Source: a virus. From it: a stretch of DNA of 64,000 bases. The translations under genes were made by a program, and so were the position numbers. The number at the start of each line of letters is the position of its first letter. Within the stretch, counting starts at the first letter, position 1. The stretch lies in IMG/VR virus record IMGVR_UViG_3300008114_000013; one strand, written 5' to 3'. Shown here piece by piece: positions 23,894-45,923 of the stretch. Under the pieces are notes generated by a model. The model did no database searches. It had not been told where the DNA came from and saw only the letters and a program-made list of their open reading frames with translations.

Positions 23894-24544
23894 TTATAAT
23901 AATTTTTTACCATCTTCATTAAATAATGATGAGTATACATAATTAGCGAATTGTTTATGCCCAAGAAAACTTAAATGGTAATCTTCCATTTTACCTTTGG
24001 TAGCATCTTTTATATTCTGTGCGTGTGAATCCTCCCAAATAGTTTGTGTATAAAATTCAAAATATTTATAACATTTTATTATAGATTTTAAAAAATCATA
24101 TCGTTTCTCGTGACGTTTACGATATACATCGTGTCCACTAAAGTAATATGAAAAATTAACAATAGTTTCATATTTTTCTTTATTTTCAATTGTGGTCTTA
24201 TAACCAGTATCGGATTTAATAACCTCACCACATACATTATAAAATTCATCTGGATTATGAGATGGTATATCAAATCTATATGAAAAAGTTTTATTAACAA
24301 TTACAATATCGTTTTCCGAAATTGAATGATAATTATCTATTATCTTATCAAATATATAATCGTTAGATGCTCCACATTTTCCTAAATTATTTAATTTATA
24401 ACCTAATTTATTAGCCAATATAACAGGCCAAATCAAATCATCATCTGATTTTTTATATTTTTTATAGTATTCATCTCCCTCATAATTTGGTACACACCCG
24501 TGTCCAAAGGTCATTGAATCACCAAAAGTCCAAAGTGTTGCCAT
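23894..24544 (-). CDS. SGNH/GDSL-like hydrolase/acyltransferase
   Basis: FGDS, GASND and DYH...GH motifs. Confidence 0.7.
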   Translation of the reverse strand: MATLWTFGDSMTFGHGCVPNYEGDEYYKKYKKSDDDLIWPVILANKLGYKLNNLGKCGASNDYIFDKIIDNYHSISENDIVIVNKTFSYRFDIPSHNPDEFYNVCGEVIKSDTGYKTTIENKEKYETIVNFSYYFSGHDVYRKRHEKRYDFLKSIIKCYKYFEFYTQTIWEDSHAQNIKDATKGKMEDYHLSFLGHKQFANYVYSSLFNEDGKKLL

Positions 24545-24547
24545 TAT

Positions 24548-25597
24548 TTAAATTAAAGGTTTTTCAGTTGTATATAAATGATGAAAATTATGTATTACAT
24601 TTGGAATATTTTTAACTTTATCCAATTCTAACAAAAACGAATTATATTCAGCATGGTCTGGATTTGCTACATTTTTAATTTTAAATTCAGCTTCACTAAA
24701 TGTACCCCAATCAGAAATCACATTGGTTCTAATATCCCATTTTACTTTAGTTTCTCTTTTATCCATATATGATTTAATCATTTTATAAAAATCGTACATT
24801 TCTTTATAATTAGTATCTTGCACTACAAATGAAAAAATATATTCTTTTATAGTTGGTATTTTTGTTATAAACTTTAAATTTTCATGCAACACATCCCAAT
24901 TACCTCCAATTCTAGTTTTAGTTTCGTATGTTTCTTTTGTAGCAGCATCTATTGAAATCTCACAAGTATTAACATAACGATGTATACCATTCATTTTCTC
25001 CCACATTTCAGGAGTCCATAATGAACCATTTGTATGTAAATGAATTGATTTTAATTTTTTAAATCTATTTGAATCCAATGTAATAAGAAACTGTCTGAAT
25101 GATTTTGAGAAAAATGGGTCAGCTGAACCACTTAATACCAATCGTTCAACGAACGGTGATATTTCATCGTTAATTTCAGTTAGTTTTTTTTCTACGGATA
25201 TTCGTTTACTACCTTTATAATTTATTAATTCAACCCTACAAGATGGGCATTGAAAATTACAGCTTCTATCAAATGTAAAATTAATTATTTTAGGCCCCTT
25301 TGTTTTATGTAAATAATCAACATTTTCGGATGTATTGGGTATGAATTTAGAAGGTATTCTATTACTTTTAAAACTTGCTAAATATGGACACAAAAATTCA
25401 TTACAGTATTTGTAACTACCATCAGTTACACTATCTCTTATTTTTTCAGAAATTTCAGAATTAAAACTATCCAATATCCCTTTACCACTATTAATATCCG
25501 TACTTAACCAAGATGGACAACATAAAAATTGTTTATTATCTTCTACCTCTGTAAAGAAGAATGGAGTTGTGCATATATATTTTGATTTATCAATCAT
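24548..25597 (-). CDS. Radical SAM protein with N-terminal Cys-rich (SPASM/twitch-like) domain
   Basis: CNFQCPSC motif; N-terminal C..P...CC...C....CP; TNG and ISID motifs. Confidence 0.9.
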   Translation of the reverse strand: MIDKSKYICTTPFFFTEVEDNKQFLCCPSWLSTDINSGKGILDSFNSEISEKIRDSVTDGSYKYCNEFLCPYLASFKSNRIPSKFIPNTSENVDYLHKTKGPKIINFTFDRSCNFQCPSCRVELINYKGSKRISVEKKLTEINDEISPFVERLVLSGSADPFFSKSFRQFLITLDSNRFKKLKSIHLHTNGSLWTPEMWEKMNGIHRYVNTCEISIDAATKETYETKTRIGGNWDVLHENLKFITKIPTIKEYIFSFVVQDTNYKEMYDFYKMIKSYMDKRETKVKWDIRTNVISDWGTFSEAEFKIKNVANPDHAEYNSFLLELDKVKNIPNVIHNFHHLYTTEKPLI

Positions 25598-26076
25598 ACT
25601 AATTTATTCTTTAATAAATCTTTACTTAAAAATGCAATTAGAGACCATCGTTCACCACTAGTAACCTCTGTTACTTCGTGTAATCTACTACCATAAAAGG
25701 TATAGATATTTCCGGCAATTTTAGGTACAATAAATTTTGGATTATAGCAAATGAGTTCTCCTCCTTGATAATCATCATTTAAACAAGCACCTATGTTATA
25801 TAAACTATGTTTATCAATATGAGGTTCAAATTTATTTCCCTTTTGTACATTTTGTAAATGAATCACATTGAGTGGTTTATTCAATGTGATGTTTGTATTC
25901 ATTTTAAGATAGTTTAACAATCGTTCAAATATCCATTCAGTTATTTCATTTCTTTCTATATGCCAAGCAAAATAAATAGTTTCATTACTTTCCCACCATT
26001 CATTTGATAAATGTTTTTGAAATAAATTTGATAATGATATTATTTCGTTACATTCTTCTTTTGTAAAGTTTATCAT
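25594..26076 (-). CDS. 2OG-Fe(II) oxygenase (prolyl-hydroxylase-like)
   Basis: HID...YQGGEL...HEV...RWSL. Confidence 0.85.
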   Translation of the reverse strand: MINFTKEECNEIISLSNLFQKHLSNEWWESNETIYFAWHIERNEITEWIFERLLNYLKMNTNITLNKPLNVIHLQNVQKGNKFEPHIDKHSLYNIGACLNDDYQGGELICYNPKFIVPKIAGNIYTFYGSRLHEVTEVTSGERWSLIAFLSKDLLKNKLV

Positions 26077-26112
26077 TATAAAAATTATTTTTTTATTAAG
26101 TCAATCAGAACA

Positions 26113-26646
26113 CTATATTAGTGATTTATTTAATGCGAAATTATCAATTGATAACCAAAAAACAATACTATATCGTATACCATCTTTAATTTTATTAACA
26201 CTATGTTCGATAGATGAATCAAACATTATAACATTTCCAATTTCTTTTGAAGATACTATTGTATCATCATTGTGAAAAATACATAATTCACCACCATCAT
26301 AATCGGTTTCATTTGAAAGTTGTATTATTAAAGTTTTATATCTGTTTGGATATTCAATGCCTGAATCGGTATGTCTTTTGAACTCTTGATTTTTATCATA
26401 TTTCAGAATTATAAAAAAATCAGGTAAATTTTTTATTTCAAATTCTTTCAACTTTTCTAACATCATATTTGATAAATTATGTGTTAGCTCTATAGTTAAC
26501 TCACTTGAAGTTCTATGTTCTGATATAACATCAATATTACTATATCCTGTTACTTTACTGCGTTTGAATGATTCATCATCAGATAATGATTTAAAGTAAT
26601 GACAATCATCTTTATTGAATAATTTTTTTTGAATAATAGATTGCAT
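26113..26646 (-). CDS. 2OG-Fe(II) oxygenase (prolyl-hydroxylase-like)
   Basis: HTD...YDGGEL...HSV...RYSIV. Confidence 0.9.
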   Translation of the reverse strand: MQSIIQKKLFNKDDCHYFKSLSDDESFKRSKVTGYSNIDVISEHRTSSELTIELTHNLSNMMLEKLKEFEIKNLPDFFIILKYDKNQEFKRHTDSGIEYPNRYKTLIIQLSNETDYDGGELCIFHNDDTIVSSKEIGNVIMFDSSIEHSVNKIKDGIRYSIVFWLSIDNFALNKSLI

Positions 26647-26647
26647 C

Positions 26648-27124
26648 TTACATTAATTTTGGTTCTCTAACTCTCTCGTATGCTAATATCATACCAACTA
26701 ACCAATCCGATGTTAATGTATCTCTTTCGTGAAATATTTTACTTCCTTCGAATATTACCCCATCACCTTGTTCTAAAATTATTTCAACTTTTTCACCACC
26801 AATCCAAAGATATAAAGGACTTGCAATTGTATCAGATTGTTTAATTAAAACACTAATAACAAGTTCACATACATCTTTGTGCTTGTGAAGTTTTTGTCCT
26901 TTAAGTGATTTTCTAGTATACCCTAAAACGGTATTTACTTTGGTTGAATAAAATTTTTCAACTTCTATTTTTAATTTTTCGGTATACCTATCAGATATTT
27001 CCCATTTATGTACTATATCAGAATCTTTAACTAGCCAATCTTTTTTCTTTTCTAGTTTTTCAAATTCAGAAAAAATGAATTCACATTCATCTAACGATAA
27101 AGCATTTTTAAGTATTTTATACAT
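26648..27124 (-). CDS. 2OG-Fe(II) oxygenase-like protein
   Basis: LHKHKD...GDGVIFEG...HER. Confidence 0.75.
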   Translation of the reverse strand: MYKILKNALSLDECEFIFSEFEKLEKKKDWLVKDSDIVHKWEISDRYTEKLKIEVEKFYSTKVNTVLGYTRKSLKGQKLHKHKDVCELVISVLIKQSDTIASPLYLWIGGEKVEIILEQGDGVIFEGSKIFHERDTLTSDWLVGMILAYERVREPKLM

Positions 27125-27126
27125 AA

Positions 27127-27708
27127 TTAAATTAAATCTTTATCTTCGATTTTAAAATCAACAAAAGGTTCATTTACATTAAGTAGTGTATGTATTTTTT
27201 TATACATTTCATAACACCCCTTTGGTCCAGGATGGTCATCTCGTTTTTCACCAGCACCTTCTTGCCAATTTGAACTAACTTGTATTAAGGATACAAAATC
27301 TTCTGTACCCTTATTAAAAGTTTCATTCCAAGTAACAAATACTGGATTATACTCCTTTAGTAAAGTTTGAAGTTTTTTAAAAAATTTTATTTCATTATTT
27401 CTCTCACCATCTAACCATCGATAGTGTTCATCTACTTTCAAACAAGCTAATTTATTTATTAAATTACCATTTGCATAAAATCGAGTAGGTATTCTACCAG
27501 GTTCGGTAAACATAATCAAAACTCTATCCCCAGGCTCAAATTCTGGTAAATCTCCTAATTGAAATATTATGGAGTTATTATCTGACCCACGCACCGCGAA
27601 TTTGTAAAATTCGTAATGGTGTGACAGATAATATGTCCAATGGTATTTCGGAATATCAAAATCAACGAATGAATCTCCAAAACAAAATAACCTAGGTTTC
27701 ATAATCAT
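27127..27708 (-). CDS. SGNH/GDSL-like hydrolase/acyltransferase
   Basis: FGDS, GSDN and DDHPG motifs. Confidence 0.7.
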   Translation of the reverse strand: MIMKPRLFCFGDSFVDFDIPKYHWTYYLSHHYEFYKFAVRGSDNNSIIFQLGDLPEFEPGDRVLIMFTEPGRIPTRFYANGNLINKLACLKVDEHYRWLDGERNNEIKFFKKLQTLLKEYNPVFVTWNETFNKGTEDFVSLIQVSSNWQEGAGEKRDDHPGPKGCYEMYKKIHTLLNVNEPFVDFKIEDKDLI

Positions 27709-27713
27709 TTGTA

Positions 27714-27866
27714 TTACAAATGTTTTGCAATAAATAATTCAAAAAATTTATTAACTACAAGTTGAACTCTTCCCTTTTCTTCTGGTGTTAATTGAGATGT
27801 AGTTCTATTATTGACAGCATTTAATGCCTTTTTTTTGTACAACGGCGGGTGGTTGGTTATGTTCAT
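27714..27866 (-). CDS. Small basic protein (50 aa) downstream of the Hint polyprotein
   Basis: Read manually: MNITNHPPLYKKKALNAVNNRTTSQLTPEEKGRVQLVVNKFFELFIAKHL; fills the intergenic gap. Confidence 0.55.
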   Translation of the reverse strand: MNITNHPPLYKKKALNAVNNRTTSQLTPEEKGRVQLVVNKFFELFIAKHL

Positions 27867-27885: not shown

Positions 27886-30183
27886 TTATGCATTAATACT
27901 TGTTTGATAAAACTCTTGTCTTTTAAAAGTTTTATTTAGTAATTCATTATCTCCTAAACCGGAAACTATAAAATCCTCTACTATAAAGTTATGTTCACTT
28001 TCAAATAAAACATCACCATCTATTTCCAAATTATAAAAGTTATCTACATATTGAATACCAAGTTCAACACCTTTTGCTTCACAAATTGGTTTCCATTCTC
28101 CATTATCATAGAATGGATGTAATCTATCGGAAATCATTCCCTTATATTTTACAACTTCAACAACATCATTGGTAGGATGTGGTATTTTATCAGTTACAAC
28201 ACCTCTTACATATTCACCATTTTTATAACTCAAAACATAATCACCAATCTCAATGTCTACTATGTTTTTAAAACTACCATCTTCCATTTTTACTTTAGTA
28301 TCGGCAGTGAAACACGAAGGTGGACGTAGGTTATGAACTAACACATTATTTGCAAAATAATTGTGATATGTTTCAATTTCTGATAAGTTGTATACGATAG
28401 TAGATTCTTCTACTATATTTACATTAATCAATTTAACATCTCCATTATGTAACTTTACAACATCACCGATTTCTATTTTTTCTACTTCTATTTTTTTAAC
28501 AGGCTTAATTCCTTCAAATGAATCATCATTATATTGTTCTGGTTCACCTAAATAGTTAACCCATCCCTTATTGATGACGTAAATTGGATGGTCTAATGTT
28601 GCTTTTAAAATACTTCCATCTGAAAATTCATATTCAACAATCTTATCAATTTGTTTAGAAAAAGTATTTAAAACTTTACTAACTTTTGGTTCGTTATTTT
28701 TTAAATCAAATGAAACTACATAATCACCTACAACTACATCTTCGATATTTTTTGTAAGTCCATTTTCTAACAAAATTTGTGTACCTGCAACGAAGCAAGG
28801 TGCGTTATGAGAAACTACTGAATTGAATGCAGTAGAACCACTTATAATATAGGTATCGGTATCTTCAACATCTAATTCTATATAAGTTAAATTATTGTCG
28901 GTAGATACATAAAAATTTAATTCATCTATATCAATTAGATTACCATTGGCATCGTATAAATAATCTACTTCAGGATTTATATTATATATTTCTTTAAATG
29001 AACTTGCATTAGAGCTAGAATCAAAAATTAAAAACGATTTTGCTATTCCAGAGAAAAGAGAATCATCATCTACTTTTAATTCAAACATACTATTATATTT
29101 TAAGTTTTCATACTTTTTATAAATTACAATAGATGATGTTAAGTATGAACCAATTGGAAACTCATTTGTTGGAAAACTATAATTAGTATCCGTCTCCTCT
29201 TCAACAGAACGAGATATATAATAAGATTTTACATAATCACCCACAACAAACTCTGATATAGGTTTGTAAGTATTTTCATCAGTTAGTATTTGGTGAGTTG
29301 ATAGTATTCCTGCTGAATCATTTTTGAATAAGTTAGTTGTAAACTCATAGTAGTGATAATCGGCTATTTTATTTGTATATTGATTTTCAACTACTTCAGA
29401 ACTTAAATCGGTTGGTAAGTCAAATATTGAACTAATTTTATAAGTATGTAAATTTACTACTTCTAAATTAGAGCCATATACTATTCCAAAAAATCTATAA
29501 GATGTTATGTGGTTATTATCATCTACATTAGATGGGTGAAAATGATATTGCTCTATTAACTTATCTTCTGCTGCGTTTTCACTAATAAAGTTATTCCATC
29601 TATCTTCTGATGATTCGTTTTCAGTTTGAAAACCTATTTTAAAGAAATCAATTGGATTATGAATTTCATTCACATCCTTTATAGTTACATCTGGTATATT
29701 GTTTGGGTTTATCTCATTTGTAAGAGTGTTTTTTTCACCAAATGATGATGAATGATAATATGAAATAGAATAATCATTTATAGAATTATCCGTAAATAAA
29801 TTAAAAACATTTAATCTATTTTTACAGTATTCACTATCAAACAGAGCAGATTCATCATACGCTAATCTCAAAATAAATTTATTATCAGAATCCTCAACTT
29901 GTGTTGGGTATATTGTACCATTACTTTCTTTATGTAAATTTATAACGGTTGTATCTGATGATAGAGAAGATGTAAGTTGGTTTACAAATTTTTGATGAAT
30001 ATCTGGTTTATAGATAATATCTAATTCAGAGATACTATTATCTACAAGTATTTGGTTAAAATCAGAAAAATCAAAATTAACTAATTCCTGATTTATAAAT
30101 CCAGTATCAGTATTTAATTCTAATAATCTCAAATTACCAGTTGAGTCTTTTACAAAATCTGCGGAAAATAGTGTTCCTTTCAT
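27886..30183 (-). CDS. Circularly permuted ATP-grasp-like domain fused to three tandem Hint (intein-like/BIL) domains
   Basis: N-terminal DF...LLELNT, later IK, LIEQY and YR motifs; Hint1 G292..HN460; Hint2 C463(FVAGT)..TLDH..HN618; Hint3 C624(FTADT)..H..FIVSG. Confidence 0.8.
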   Translation of the reverse strand: MKGTLFSADFVKDSTGNLRLLELNTDTGFINQELVNFDFSDFNQILVDNSISELDIIYKPDIHQKFVNQLTSSLSSDTTVINLHKESNGTIYPTQVEDSDNKFILRLAYDESALFDSEYCKNRLNVFNLFTDNSINDYSISYYHSSSFGEKNTLTNEINPNNIPDVTIKDVNEIHNPIDFFKIGFQTENESSEDRWNNFISENAAEDKLIEQYHFHPSNVDDNNHITSYRFFGIVYGSNLEVVNLHTYKISSIFDLPTDLSSEVVENQYTNKIADYHYYEFTTNLFKNDSAGILSTHQILTDENTYKPISEFVVGDYVKSYYISRSVEEETDTNYSFPTNEFPIGSYLTSSIVIYKKYENLKYNSMFELKVDDDSLFSGIAKSFLIFDSSSNASSFKEIYNINPEVDYLYDANGNLIDIDELNFYVSTDNNLTYIELDVEDTDTYIISGSTAFNSVVSHNAPCFVAGTQILLENGLTKNIEDVVVGDYVVSFDLKNNEPKVSKVLNTFSKQIDKIVEYEFSDGSILKATLDHPIYVINKGWVNYLGEPEQYNDDSFEGIKPVKKIEVEKIEIGDVVKLHNGDVKLINVNIVEESTIVYNLSEIETYHNYFANNVLVHNLRPPSCFTADTKVKMEDGSFKNIVDIEIGDYVLSYKNGEYVRGVVTDKIPHPTNDVVEVVKYKGMISDRLHPFYDNGEWKPICEAKGVELGIQYVDNFYNLEIDGDVLFESEHNFIVEDFIVSGLGDNELLNKTFKRQEFYQTSINA

Positions 30184-30226: not shown

Positions 30227-30817
30227 TTAAATTAAACTTCTTTTTGATTTAACATCAATTACATTTCGTAATCTATTTCTATTATCTAAAAGAGAATGAG
30301 AATTTATTTTTTGAATCCCCAAATAATGAGTTAACCTATTAATATCCTCATTACCTTGATATATGTTCTCATATGATACCATTAATTCAATTTGGGGTAT
30401 ATTAGATATTATCTCTTTATATTTCTGCAATCTAGATTCCTCCTCTTTGATTTCTTTTTCATTTTCTATTAACCATTGATTAGATATTTCATAGCATTCT
30501 CTCCAAGTAATAGAATTTGAAGATAGTGCCCAATAATGTGATATTGCACACTCTTGTATATCGTTTCGTATTAACCCAATGACCTTATCCCAATTACTCC
30601 AATTGAATGTATCTAATTCATTTTCTATTTCACTAATCAAATACTTTACTACTATATTGTTTTTATTTTTTTCCAATAACCTGATTTTATAGATACTCAA
30701 CATATCAAAATTATCTTTTGTTGGTTCATGAATAGTTTGATATTTTTTTTCTGAACCTATCCAATTAAGTAAAGAATACCCACCACTTCTACCCATCGCG
30801 ATTATTAGTATTCTCAT
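30227..30817 (-). CDS. Sulfotransferase-like P-loop protein
   Basis: AMGRSGG..L, HEP, LIR...AIS and SYE motifs. Confidence 0.65.
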   Translation of the reverse strand: MRILIIAMGRSGGYSLLNWIGSEKKYQTIHEPTKDNFDMLSIYKIRLLEKNKNNIVVKYLISEIENELDTFNWSNWDKVIGLIRNDIQECAISHYWALSSNSITWRECYEISNQWLIENEKEIKEEESRLQKYKEIISNIPQIELMVSYENIYQGNEDINRLTHYLGIQKINSHSLLDNRNRLRNVIDVKSKRSLI

Positions 30818-30833
30818 ATTTACAAAATTGAAA

Positions 30834-31334
30834 TTAAATAACTGAATGTAGTATTAACTCATGTAATCCTTCAACGATTCCGTAATCTTTACTATCTACC
30901 CAAAAATGTAATTTTGAATGGCTTCCAAAGTTAGATTTCAATTTATTCTTTTCAGAATGACCCGACATTGTAATCATATCAATGGAATTATCTACACAAT
31001 ACTTCGCACAATTCAATATGTTTTTTGAATTACCAGATGATGATATTAGTATTACCAATGTATCTCCTTCTACAAAATGTTCTAAAAACATCTGATATGC
31101 ATTATCCCAACCGTAATCATTCGCATAACAACTCATTCTAGGTGTATCACCAAATGTAATTGTTTTAATTCCCAACATTTTATGGTAATCTTCGGCTATG
31201 TGTAACGCAACCGCATTACTTCCACCATTACCCAATATAATGATATTACTATGATGGCGTATTAAGTTATTTAATGTTGCTAATTTACCTGTCTCTATTT
31301 CAGCTAAACATTTTTTATATTCTTGTAAATTCAT
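30834..31334 (-). CDS. SIS-domain sugar-phosphate isomerase (GmhA-like)
   Basis: GNGGS, ANDYG, ISSSGNS and VEGLH motifs. Confidence 0.85.
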   Translation of the reverse strand: MNLQEYKKCLAEIETGKLATLNNLIRHHSNIIILGNGGSNAVALHIAEDYHKMLGIKTITFGDTPRMSCYANDYGWDNAYQMFLEHFVEGDTLVILISSSGNSKNILNCAKYCVDNSIDMITMSGHSEKNKLKSNFGSHSKLHFWVDSKDYGIVEGLHELILHSVI

Positions 31335-38365: not shown

Positions 38366-38671
38366 TTAGATGATTGATTTTAGAATTGAATTAGAGAAGT
38401 TGTACTGAAGTTTCAGTTGGTTACCAGCCTCTTTAGGAGATAACTCATTAAGGATTCTATCGATAACATTCCCTTCAGATTTGTAAATCTTTAAGAAGTT
38501 CAAAATCGCTTTATGTTGTGGTCTGGTACGGAAGGAGAAAGTAAATCCATACTTACTAATGGTTGGTGCCCCACTTCGTACTGCCAAACCTTTTTTAGAA
38601 GTTGGTTTGAAGATTCCGGCTTCTTCTACATTCACGGATGAGTAACGGGGGTTGTTTCTGTAACTGGTCAT
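38366..38671 (-). CDS. Hypothetical early protein
   Basis: Start moved to MTSYRNNPRY, downstream of the promoter and C-rich leader. Confidence 0.6.
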   Translation of the reverse strand: MTSYRNNPRYSSVNVEEAGIFKPTSKKGLAVRSGAPTISKYGFTFSFRTRPQHKAILNFLKIYKSEGNVIDRILNELSPKEAGNQLKLQYNFSNSILKSII

Positions 38672-38708
38672 AATCAGGGGGGTTAGTAGTTCATCATTCA
38701 TTACATAG

Positions 38709-45374: not shown

Positions 45375-45923
45375 TTAAATTAGTTTATTTAATGCATCTA
45401 AAAATTTATTAATTCCTTTGCTATGATTCGCATCCCAGTCATCCGATGCACCACTATCGCTTATGTATTTATACGAAACGAAATCGAAACGATTTAGTTT
45501 ACATACTTTTGCGATTGAGTATGCTTCCATATCAAAAACTCCGTTTGGATTCATCTCAAATTTATCTTGAGTTCTACACACTTCCCCATCACCAAATGTT
45601 AATACAGATTCTTTAAGTTGAGAATGAGTAATTTCATCAAATGGAGTTGAATACTTTTCTCCAAAAGGAGTGTCCATATCCTGTTGAACAAAATGTTTAC
45701 ATTCAACAAGTGTTCCAACTGGTAATGTATTTGAACCAGCAGAACCATAATTTATTACCAACACATCATTTGAGTAATTTCGTATCTGTGATAATACTTG
45801 CGTTGATTTGATTGCTGCATTTACTTTACCCACACCTGTGTAATATACATCTACGGAATTTGGTATTATATCCTTTGGTAATTCGGATTCCAATGCTACA
45901 AATAGTATGATTCGTTTATCCAT
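45375..45923 (-). CDS. MTA/SAH nucleosidase-like (PNP/UDP family)
   Basis: TGVGKVNAA, NYGSAG, DMEA and KYISD motifs. Confidence 0.85.
   Translation of the reverse strand: MDKRIILFVALESELPKDIIPNSVDVYYTGVGKVNAAIKSTQVLSQIRNYSNDVLVINYGSAGSNTLPVGTLVECKHFVQQDMDTPFGEKYSTPFDEITHSQLKESVLTFGDGEVCRTQDKFEMNPNGVFDMEAYSIAKVCKLNRFDFVSYKYISDSGASDDWDANHSKGINKFLDALNKLI

What the first reader, a model, noticed from the sequence alone, without database searches (positions are those of the whole stretch)
27886..30183. ATP-grasp plus triple-Hint polyprotein arranged to excise thioester-activated micro-peptides (AP and LRPPS)
Seen in sequence: Hint1 starts with Gly (no N-terminal nucleophile) but ends ...VVSHN. 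The linker is AP. Hint2 is complete (C463, TLDH, ...LVHN618). The next linker is LRPPS. Hint3 starts with Cys624 but lacks the terminal HN. The +1 residues (Ala, Leu) cannot support normal splicing. By known Hint chemistry each linker would gain a free N-terminus (Asn cyclisation upstream) and a C-terminal thioester (N-S shift downstream), like engineered two-intein cyclisation systems. The outer, unneeded termini are exactly the inactivated ones. Predicted products are cyclo(Ala-Pro), cyclo-LRPPS, or peptides ligated to a target. The N-terminal ~290 aa has ATP-grasp motifs in circularly permuted order (DF..LLELNT first, then K, LIEQY, R), pointing to a fused amide ligase. This is a candidate new phage peptide biosynthesis or tagging system.
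Basis: partly seen in the sequence, partly recalled or inferred. Interest (0 to 1): 0.92.

Follow-up and report, generated by a model that had tools for sequence, protein, structure and literature searches.

The report
Phage ligase with self-released peptide tail
A giant lake phage makes a two-piece ATP-driven ligase fused to a self-cutting domain that carries one highly variable peptide tail, next to a set of tagged modifying enzymes; it looks like an undescribed viral way to make or attach a modified peptide, but not by cutting out the tiny cyclic peptides first proposed.

Summary
Observation confirmed: a 765-aa minus-strand ORF with a circularly permuted ATP-grasp and three Hint-fold domains (Gly1/HN; complete; Vint-type), with linkers AP and LRPPS. 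The cyclo-linker reading fails on 228 homologues. Linkers are often empty (27) or one residue (22), none starts with Cys, and the last module is a fully active Hint in 141, absent in 33 and a peptidase S74 in 3. The invariant core is ligase + N-dead Hint1 + ONE hypervariable tail. Extra Hints are swappable type A BIL cassettes placed before Lys/Arg (281/286). Related Cys-rich tails occur intact or interrupted just before their terminal Lys, so the expected product here is AP+LRPPS joined. A missed 50-aa gene (27714-27866) follows the gene in 59/59 loci. It is predicted to bind the ligase (0.94 vs control 0.00) and is fused to the C-terminus of a stand-alone paralogue, so the ligase is split. 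Seven of eight flanking enzymes share a K-x-L-I tail. Best reading (55%): a fused enzyme-precursor, RiPP-like system of uncultured phages. I found no paper on it. The scan noted this family earlier in at least 8 other genomes. No chemistry has been shown.

The parts
29311..30183 (-). Circularly permuted ATP-grasp, large piece (aa 1-291); starts at the D9/E22/N24 metal-ligand strands; keeps K169, R230; lacks the helix supplied by the partner
28804..29310 (-). Hint1 (aa 292-460): Gly1, no TxxH, block F His replaced by invariant Asp443, His-Asn end; stays fused to the ligase; predicted C-terminal cleavage only
28798..28803 (-). First part of the tail peptide, Ala-Pro (aa 461-462)
28330..28797 (-). 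Hint2 (aa 463-618): complete type A BIL (Cys1, TxxH, His-Asn) of the clade inserted at xP|R
28315..28329 (-). Second, hypervariable part of the tail, LRPPS (aa 619-623); 26 variants among the 34 closest proteins
27886..28314 (-). Hint3 (aa 624-765, plus stop): Vint-type terminal module, Cys1 and block B His kept, no His-Asn, conserved extension aa 741-756; exchangeable with a BIL ending HN-K or with peptidase S74
27714..27866 (-). 50-aa partner gene: split-off C-terminal strand and helix of the ATP-grasp
23894..27708 (-). Six downstream genes: two 2OG-Fe(II) oxygenases, a third oxygenase-like gene, a radical SAM protein and two ORFs without a Pfam hit that resemble SGNH/GDSL hydrolases (by motif; a similar-looking neighbour in L057 hit GDSL weakly, E 0.02); all end in a K-x(0-3)-L/I/V-hydrophobic tag
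30227..31334 (-). Upstream sulfotransferase-like P-loop protein (tagged; a similar-looking neighbour in L101 hit Sulfotransfer_4 weakly, E 0.0035) and SIS-domain protein (ends SVI, not counted as tagged)

Best explanation
A fused enzyme-precursor, RiPP-like system of uncultured jumbo phages. (1) The large piece and the 50-aa partner assemble into a circularly permuted ATP-grasp amide ligase (fold modelled; binding predicted; activity inferred). (2) Hint1 sits where the partner piece was split off. It cannot cut its N-terminus, so it acts as a permanent leader that holds one C-terminal tail peptide near the ligase and later releases it by Asn460 cyclisation (inferred from conservation). (3) Hint2-type BILs are mobile insertions inside that tail. 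They remove themselves and, by type A BIL aminolysis, rejoin the flanks; a terminal Vint or S74 module cuts itself off at its N-terminus. Here the mature tail would be Ala-Pro joined to LRPPS, with its C-terminus set by Vint (inferred). (4) The ligase forms an amide on the tail; most likely the terminal Lys or the freed alpha-amine attacks an ATP-activated carboxylate, or the tail carboxylate is joined to a polyamine as YgiC does. The tagged neighbouring enzymes tailor the tail or its acceptor (inferred; least certain).
For: Core invariant while the tail varies: D9 301, E22 300, N24 298, K169 295, R230 300, N460 301 of 302. 33 homologues have only Hint1 plus a tail ending at the stop codon, many of them 23-84-aa Cys-rich peptides with shared Cys spacing, which cannot be linkers. 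Lys is in the last three residues of 29/33 such tails (shuffle mean 12.2, maximum 19 in 2000). Cys-rich tails with a terminal BIL have no Lys just before the BIL (0/10) and Lys after it (10/10), and intact and interrupted forms are tree sisters (P0342/P0339 support 1.00; L002/P0345 0.98). All 286 BILs keep Cys1, block B His and terminal Asn, even the 101 followed by a single Lys and stop. Short tails are not loop-like: Asp+Glu 3.7% against 17.3% in indel-prone core columns; Gly/Ala/Arg/Pro 37.7% against 19.6%. Terminal modules swap between close relatives (LRPPV followed by Vint or by BIL-K at 85% core identity). Partner in 59/59 loci; complex score 0.94 against best control 0.00, runs agree in at least 79% of contacts, partner pLDDT at least 71; this mark was reached by 58 of 80 solved and 2 of 110 mismatched pairs, and split halves tend to pass by likeness to solved folds. 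Stand-alone paralogue P0371 carries the partner helix at its C-terminus (E 4e-4, next best 0.6). Oxygenase-like neighbours in 55/59 loci; all 5 large genomes checked have a 2OG-oxygenase gene within 4 kb; tag in 7/8 neighbours against 3/78 elsewhere. Precedent for fused enzyme-core precursors: borosins (PMC8429565).
Against: No chemistry is shown. Type A BILs mostly cleave rather than splice (PMC4031507), and another review says they do not ligate (PMC7765530). Hint1 lacks the block F His that assists Asn cyclisation (Asp in 296/302). The Arg that precedes the first Asp in GspS and GSH synthetase (own knowledge) is Ser/Gly here. This window's tail has no Lys; only 9/51 Vint-terminated tails do, so the Lys rule needs Vint to supply an amine or does not hold in this lineage. 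Some tails are 1-3 residues long (18/228), and LRPPS is no more variable than the most variable loops (rank 11 of 749 windows). K/R at +1/+2 may be a requirement of the BIL itself. Counts are of sequences, not independent events.
Confidence: 0.55

Rival explanations
1. The extra Hints are harmless self-removing passengers that only cleave. In this short-tail lineage the tail is a vestigial spacer, and the ligase works on another substrate (small-molecule acid and polyamine, or a virion or host protein), with Hint1 as a scaffold or docking domain for the tagged enzymes.
For: BIL cleavage dominates over splicing; module number and type change quickly; tails can be a single Lys; the nearest structural relatives act on small peptides and spermidine; Hint1 has a conserved acidic patch D438/E440/D443.
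Against: Does not explain the invariant Hint1 Asn, the terminal Lys of Hint1-only tails, the insertion of BILs just before that Lys, the retention of His-Asn-Lys on terminal BILs, or the acid-free composition of short tails.
Confidence: 0.22
2. Covalent tagging: the ligase activates the conserved K-x-L-I C-terminal carboxylate of the neighbouring enzymes (or of another protein) and joins it to the tail's Lys or alpha-amine or to a polyamine. Hint1 then releases the conjugate, as a single-shot device like BUBL ubiquitin dispensing.
For: Tag in 7/8 neighbours against 3/78 (Fisher p 1.7e-7, region and pattern chosen after seeing them); across 59 loci it peaks at 55-67% at +1 to +3 and falls to 5-10% at -6 to -8. 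GS/GspS/YgiC-type ligases activate peptide C-terminal carboxylates (own knowledge). The conserved feature of the tail is an amine.
Against: One tail per ligase cannot serve eight enzymes; non-covalent docking explains the tag as well; docking of the tag was not modelled.
Confidence: 0.12
3. One reading: each linker is cut out with a free amine and a thioester and becomes cyclo(Ala-Pro), cyclo-LRPPS or a tag. It may occur as a side reaction, because X-Pro thioesters form diketopiperazines readily (own knowledge).
For: Chemically possible from the residues present; an X-Pro first linker occurs in 107 of 192 multi-Hint homologues; S74 and Vint cut only at their N-terminus.
Against: Empty and one-residue linkers (49 of 337); dead outer C-terminus in only 51 of 228; no N-terminal Cys in 310 linkers; X-Pro is tied to one BIL clade with Arg after it (106/106 against 4/82), i.e. 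most likely one insertion event; a five-residue ring closed through Leu has no ligation handle; the model gives the ligase no role.
Confidence: 0.08

Closest known systems
Circularly permuted ATP-grasp ligases: E. coli YgiC/YjfC (peptide-spermidine ligases), GspS synthetase domain, eukaryotic glutathione synthetase
   Same: Fold and strand order; Asp/Glu/Asn metal ligands first; best Foldseek and VIA hits.
   Different: About 10% identity. The matches begin at residue 94-160 of the single-domain relatives: their N-terminal part is missing and a helix comes in trans from a 50-aa gene. No RxD Arg. Fused to Hint and a peptide. Essentially virus-only (one hit, on a 2.8-kb MAG contig, in GTDB).
Type A bacterial intein-like (BIL) domains (C. 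thermocellum BIL, 2LWY)
   Same: Hint2: Cys1, TxxH, His-Asn, no +1 nucleophile, hypervariable setting, mobile.
   Different: Tandem arrays of up to three inside one short peptide; near-obligate Lys/Arg at +1/+2; in 5 large genomes nearly all matches lie in this gene.
Borosin fused precursors (OphMA; types I-III)
   Same: Modifying enzyme encoded in frame as a giant leader before a variable C-terminal core (PMC8429565).
   Different: The enzyme is an amide ligase, not a methyltransferase; release is by a built-in Hint, not a protease; viral.
Ciliate BUBL polyproteins (Tetrahymena BIL2, 6Y75/6TMM)
   Same: Tandem BILs in one polyprotein; best structural match of Hint1.
   Different: No ubiquitin-like domains; fused ligase; 0-10-residue spacers in most members.
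Graspetides (microviridin-type ATP-grasp RiPPs)
   Same: ATP-grasp acting on a ribosomal peptide.
   Different: Non-permuted ligase in trans (7mgv aligns only to 51-288, Z 4.7); cores need Asp/Glu donors, which these short tails lack.
Vint domains (PF14623)
   Same: Hint3 scores above the cut-off; Cys1, no His-Asn.
   Different: No VWA/Vwaint domain; a swappable terminal cassette in phages.

Membership tests
Circularly permuted ATP-grasp (GspS/GS clade) | ATP-grasp fold with the D..E-x-N strands before the lid | tested here: met
Circularly permuted ATP-grasp (GspS/GS clade) | Conserved metal ligands and ATP-binding Lys | tested here: met
   D9, E22, N24, K169 in 295-301 of 302
Circularly permuted ATP-grasp (GspS/GS clade) | Arg two residues before the first Asp; N-terminal helical part in the same chain | tested here: not met
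   Ser/Gly at that place; alignments begin inside the known chains; helix in the partner gene
Circularly permuted ATP-grasp (GspS/GS clade) | ATP-dependent amide ligation | not testable with these tools
   needs an assay
Canonical (class 1) intein | Cys/Ser/Thr at +1 | tested here: not met
   2 of 286 BIL C-exteins; Leu here
Class 2 or class 3 intein (Hint1) | +1 nucleophile, and for class 3 a block F Cys | tested here: not met
   Hint1 here has no Cys and +1 is Ala; block F position is Glu or varied
Type A BIL (Hint2) | Cys1, TxxH, terminal His-Asn, no +1 nucleophile, hypervariable context | tested here: met
   definition from PMC4031507 and PMC7765530
Type A BIL (Hint2) | Autocleavage or splicing activity | not testable with these tools
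   needs expression
Vint (Hint3) | PF14623 match above the cut-off | tested here: met
   52.3 bits for the protein against 27; best stretch 623-759
Vint (Hint3) | VWA-Vwaint-Vint architecture | tested here: not met
   no VWA (PMC2362128)
Two-intein (EPL-type) cyclisation | Freed N-terminal Cys on the excised peptide | tested here: not met
   0 of 310 linkers (PMC7765530)
Graspetide | Asp/Glu donors in the core; non-permuted ligase | tested here: not met
   no acid in this tail; 3.7% Asp+Glu in short tails
Borosin | Enzyme fused in frame to a C-terminal core | tested here: met
Borosin | SAM-dependent alpha-N-methyltransferase | tested here: not met
   domain is an ATP-grasp
BUBL | Ubiquitin-like domains between BILs | tested here: not met
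   spacers of 2 and 5 residues here
RiPP (broad) | Ribosomal peptide shown to be modified and released | not testable with these tools
   genomic hallmarks only

The most novel reading that the evidence does not exclude
A virus-specific class of self-maturing peptide systems: a split amide ligase carries its own substrate on a half-disabled Hint leader, mobile intein-like cassettes splice on Lys/Arg without a side-chain nucleophile to build and diversify the peptide (Vint adding a small amine where Lys is missing), and a C-terminal tag recruits tailoring enzymes to the complex.
Probability: 0.3. Interest if true: 0.92.

Novelty: new variant of a known kind. Interest (0 to 1): 0.78.

Why it matters
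If right, large aquatic phages run a RiPP-like pathway of their own, with hundreds of diverse cores (short Pro/Gly/aromatic peptides and Cys-rich miniproteins) and no cultured example. It would give type A BIL domains, whose natural role is still open, a concrete job that can be tested in one recombinant protein: ligation onto Lys/Arg without Cys/Ser/Thr, which protein engineers want. It would also explain why these phages carry clusters of oxygenases, radical SAM proteins, halogenases and sulfotransferase-like enzymes. The split ligase with a fused relic paralogue records a probably independent circular permutation of ATP-grasp.

Tried and rejected
Pfam, NCBIfam, PHROGs and PDB sequence searches give nothing for residues 1-300; only the fold search named it. 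BFVD fold search: no hit at E<=0.001. Cultured phage collection: no match. Partner: no credible NCBIfam or Atlas family. Cys-rich tails: no NCBIfam match. Shorter homologues were mostly on short contigs and look like fragments; P0344 lies at the end of a 1.8-kb contig and was not used. The idea that BILs are generic C-terminal caps on many phage proteins was rejected: in 5 genomes all but two matches lie in this gene. The partner as ligase substrate is disfavoured: its C-terminal residues lie in the predicted interface and its end varies in length. Linker N-termini (L/F/Y/R/K) resemble N-end-rule degrons; not testable and not pursued. RNA runs hold only three short contigs near the 3' end at depth 2-3, which is no evidence of expression; the 15 DNA holders are flagged as possible sources. 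Promoter scan at chance level (33 against 38.9). Four paper searches aimed at this design found nothing on it; Iyer 2009 was not held; the BUBL search returned no relevant paper. No whole genome is held. A joined partner-plus-ligase query was not run because it has no reference. Four proteins were dropped from the tail counts as truncated or mis-parsed; one tail (P0339) was cut four residues short by the parser, which does not change the Lys counts.

Full report
Setting. The window is part of an AT-rich jumbo phage: it holds a baseplate wedge gene, a thymidylate-synthase-like gene and other T4-like genes. Runs that hold it are mostly lake and freshwater metagenomes, all flagged as possible sources.

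Domains. Residues 1-288 have no family hit by sequence. The AlphaFold model (pLDDT 90.5) matches only circularly permuted ATP-grasps: YjfC, YgiC, GspS and glutathione synthetases, colinear over the whole length, whereas ordinary ATP-grasps align only from residue 50. D9, E22, N24, K169 and R230 are kept in 295-301 of 302 homologues, so the enzyme is probably active (inference). Hint1 (292-460) is a Hint fold by profile and by model. Its first residue is never Cys, Ser or Thr, block B TxxH is gone, block F His is Asp, and Asn460 is kept in 301/302. Hint2 is a complete type A BIL. Hint3 is Vint-type: it keeps Cys624 and His689, has Asp in place of the block B Thr, and ends in a conserved extension instead of His-Asn.

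The family. There are 962 near-length homologues and 330 representatives at 50% identity, single copy in each of five large viral genomes, absent from cultured phages and, but for one small MAG contig, from GTDB. Lengths fall in steps of about 150 residues. After parsing, 228 non-redundant proteins end with a BIL (141), a Vint (51), nothing after the tail (33) or a peptidase S74 (3). The constant part is therefore ligase, Hint1 and one tail.

It predicts conserved dead outer termini and linkers long enough to be products. Neither holds. The outer C-terminus is fully active in 141 of 228. Of 337 linkers between Hints, 27 are empty and 22 are a single residue. None starts with Cys, which engineered two-intein cyclisation needs. 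The X-Pro first linker is tied to one BIL clade followed by Arg (106/106 against 4/82), which reads as one insertion between Pro and Arg. Cyclo(Ala-Pro) remains a possible side product.

One tail, interrupted. Hint1-only proteins end in short tails or in 23-84-residue Cys-rich peptides with shared Cys spacing. Lys lies in the last three residues in 29/33 (shuffle mean 12.2, maximum 19). Cys-rich tails that carry a terminal BIL lack Lys just before it (0/10) and have it after (10/10), and intact and interrupted forms are sisters on the core tree. Of 286 BILs, 281 have Lys or Arg at +1 or +2, and all keep both active ends even when only one Lys follows. Type A BILs can join their flanks through the freed amino group, though cleavage dominates (PMC4031507; a second review denies ligation). 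The simplest reading is that BILs are insertions in one peptide and are spliced out. Terminal modules are exchanged between close relatives. In the closest 34 proteins the second segment has 26 variants; it is as variable as the loosest loops, but short tails are nearly free of Asp, Glu and Asn and rich in Pro, Gly and aromatics, unlike those loops. For this window the predicted mature tail is Ala-Pro plus LRPPS. It lacks Lys, like most Vint-ended tails. That is the main gap in the model, and it suggests that Vint may deliver an amine (speculation).

A split ligase. A 50-aa ORF at 27714-27866 starts 19 bases after the stop. A homologue is the next gene in 58 of 59 distinct loci and two genes down in the other. 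The complex is predicted at 0.94 against a best control of 0.00; runs agree in at least 79% of contacts and partner pLDDT is at least 71; the mark was reached by 58 of 80 solved and 2 of 110 mismatched pairs. This supports binding and does not show it, and halves of a split gene pass by likeness to solved folds. The partner's residues 23-26 lie against strand 247-250 and its helix covers the back of the catalytic sheet, the place of the helix that precedes the Asp and Glu-x-Asn strands in ordinary ATP-grasps (own knowledge). A stand-alone, catalytically degenerate paralogue (P0371, L101) carries this helix at its own C-terminus (E 4e-4, next best 0.6). So the Hint1-tail cassette appears to have entered the loop before the last helix and split the enzyme. 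Because Hint termini lie side by side (established), the tail would start close to the ligase (inference).

Neighbours. Oxygenase-like genes lie within 7 kb in 55/59 loci, sulfotransferase-like in 27 and radical SAM in 23. In five large genomes with only 1-5 detected 2OG-oxygenase genes each, one always lies within 4 kb (the genomes are related, so not independent). A Trp-rich, Cys-rich tail sits near a Trp-halogenase-family gene. Following a lead from earlier scan notes, I tested the shared C-terminal tag: 7/8 neighbours here against 3/78 other ORFs, and a peak of 55-67% just downstream across 59 loci (pattern chosen after the fact).

Mechanism and odds. Shown: domain content, conservation pattern, architecture counts, gene linkage. 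Predicted: folds and partner binding. Inferred: Hint1 C-cleavage, BIL splicing, ligase action on the tail, tailoring. Fused enzyme-precursor with one tail 55%; passengers with a vestigial tail and another substrate 22%; covalent tagging of the neighbours 12%; excised cyclic linkers 8%.

Comparison. It works like a borosin-type fused precursor built on a YgiC/GspS-like ligase with BUBL-like tandem BILs, but it fails a defining test of each family, and of inteins and graspetides. I found no paper on it. The scan has met the family before in at least eight genomes; those notes are not independent support. Two of them call the spacers mere linkers. My counts agree that they are not separate products, but indicate that they are parts of one selected tail. 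Verdict: real, a new variant of the fused-precursor kind, interest 0.78.

Noticed in passing
L101:3659-4567 (P0371): Stand-alone 302-aa paralogue with the catalytic Asp, Glu and Arg lost and the partner helix fused at its C-terminus, three genes after the partner of a full family member.
   Followed up: yes
L022:11724-12224: Stand-alone BIL with a 14-residue N-extein and a three-residue C-extein starting with Lys, 2.4 kb downstream of the family gene.
   Followed up: no
L095:211-1983 (G002 near 80.3 kb): Long Gly/Ser/Thr-rich, virion-like protein ending in a Cys-started Hint with a Hint1-like block F and an eight-residue Ala-Lys tail.
   Followed up: partly
L071:8977-9360: A Hint-like 128-aa ORF lies between the gene and its partner; no Pfam hit.
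   Followed up: partly
P0270, P0296, P0373: A domain of about 150 aa is inserted in the ligase-Hint1 core of some homologues; in P0373 it matches CBM_4_9 (carbohydrate-binding) and sits inside Hint1.
   Followed up: no
window:31342-31578 (-): 78-aa protein with several Cys pairs (phrog_13558); a similar gene lies next to the system in several loci, including L102.
   Followed up: partly
window:33828-34463, 38366-38701, 45375-45923 (-): Three ORFs outside the cluster also end in the K-x-L/I tag.
   Followed up: no
window:16185-17882 (-): Carbamoyltransferase-like gene (by motif); a relative lies within 7 kb of the system in 14 loci.
   Followed up: no
window:32231-33683 (+): A short run of plus-strand ORFs in an otherwise minus-strand window, with a flip in GC and AT skew.
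   Followed up: no
P0333, P0348, P0374: Peptidase S74 (endosialidase chaperone; Pfam E 1e-4 to 3e-3) replaces the terminal Hint; S74 normally works on trimers, which may hint at the oligomer state.
   Followed up: partly
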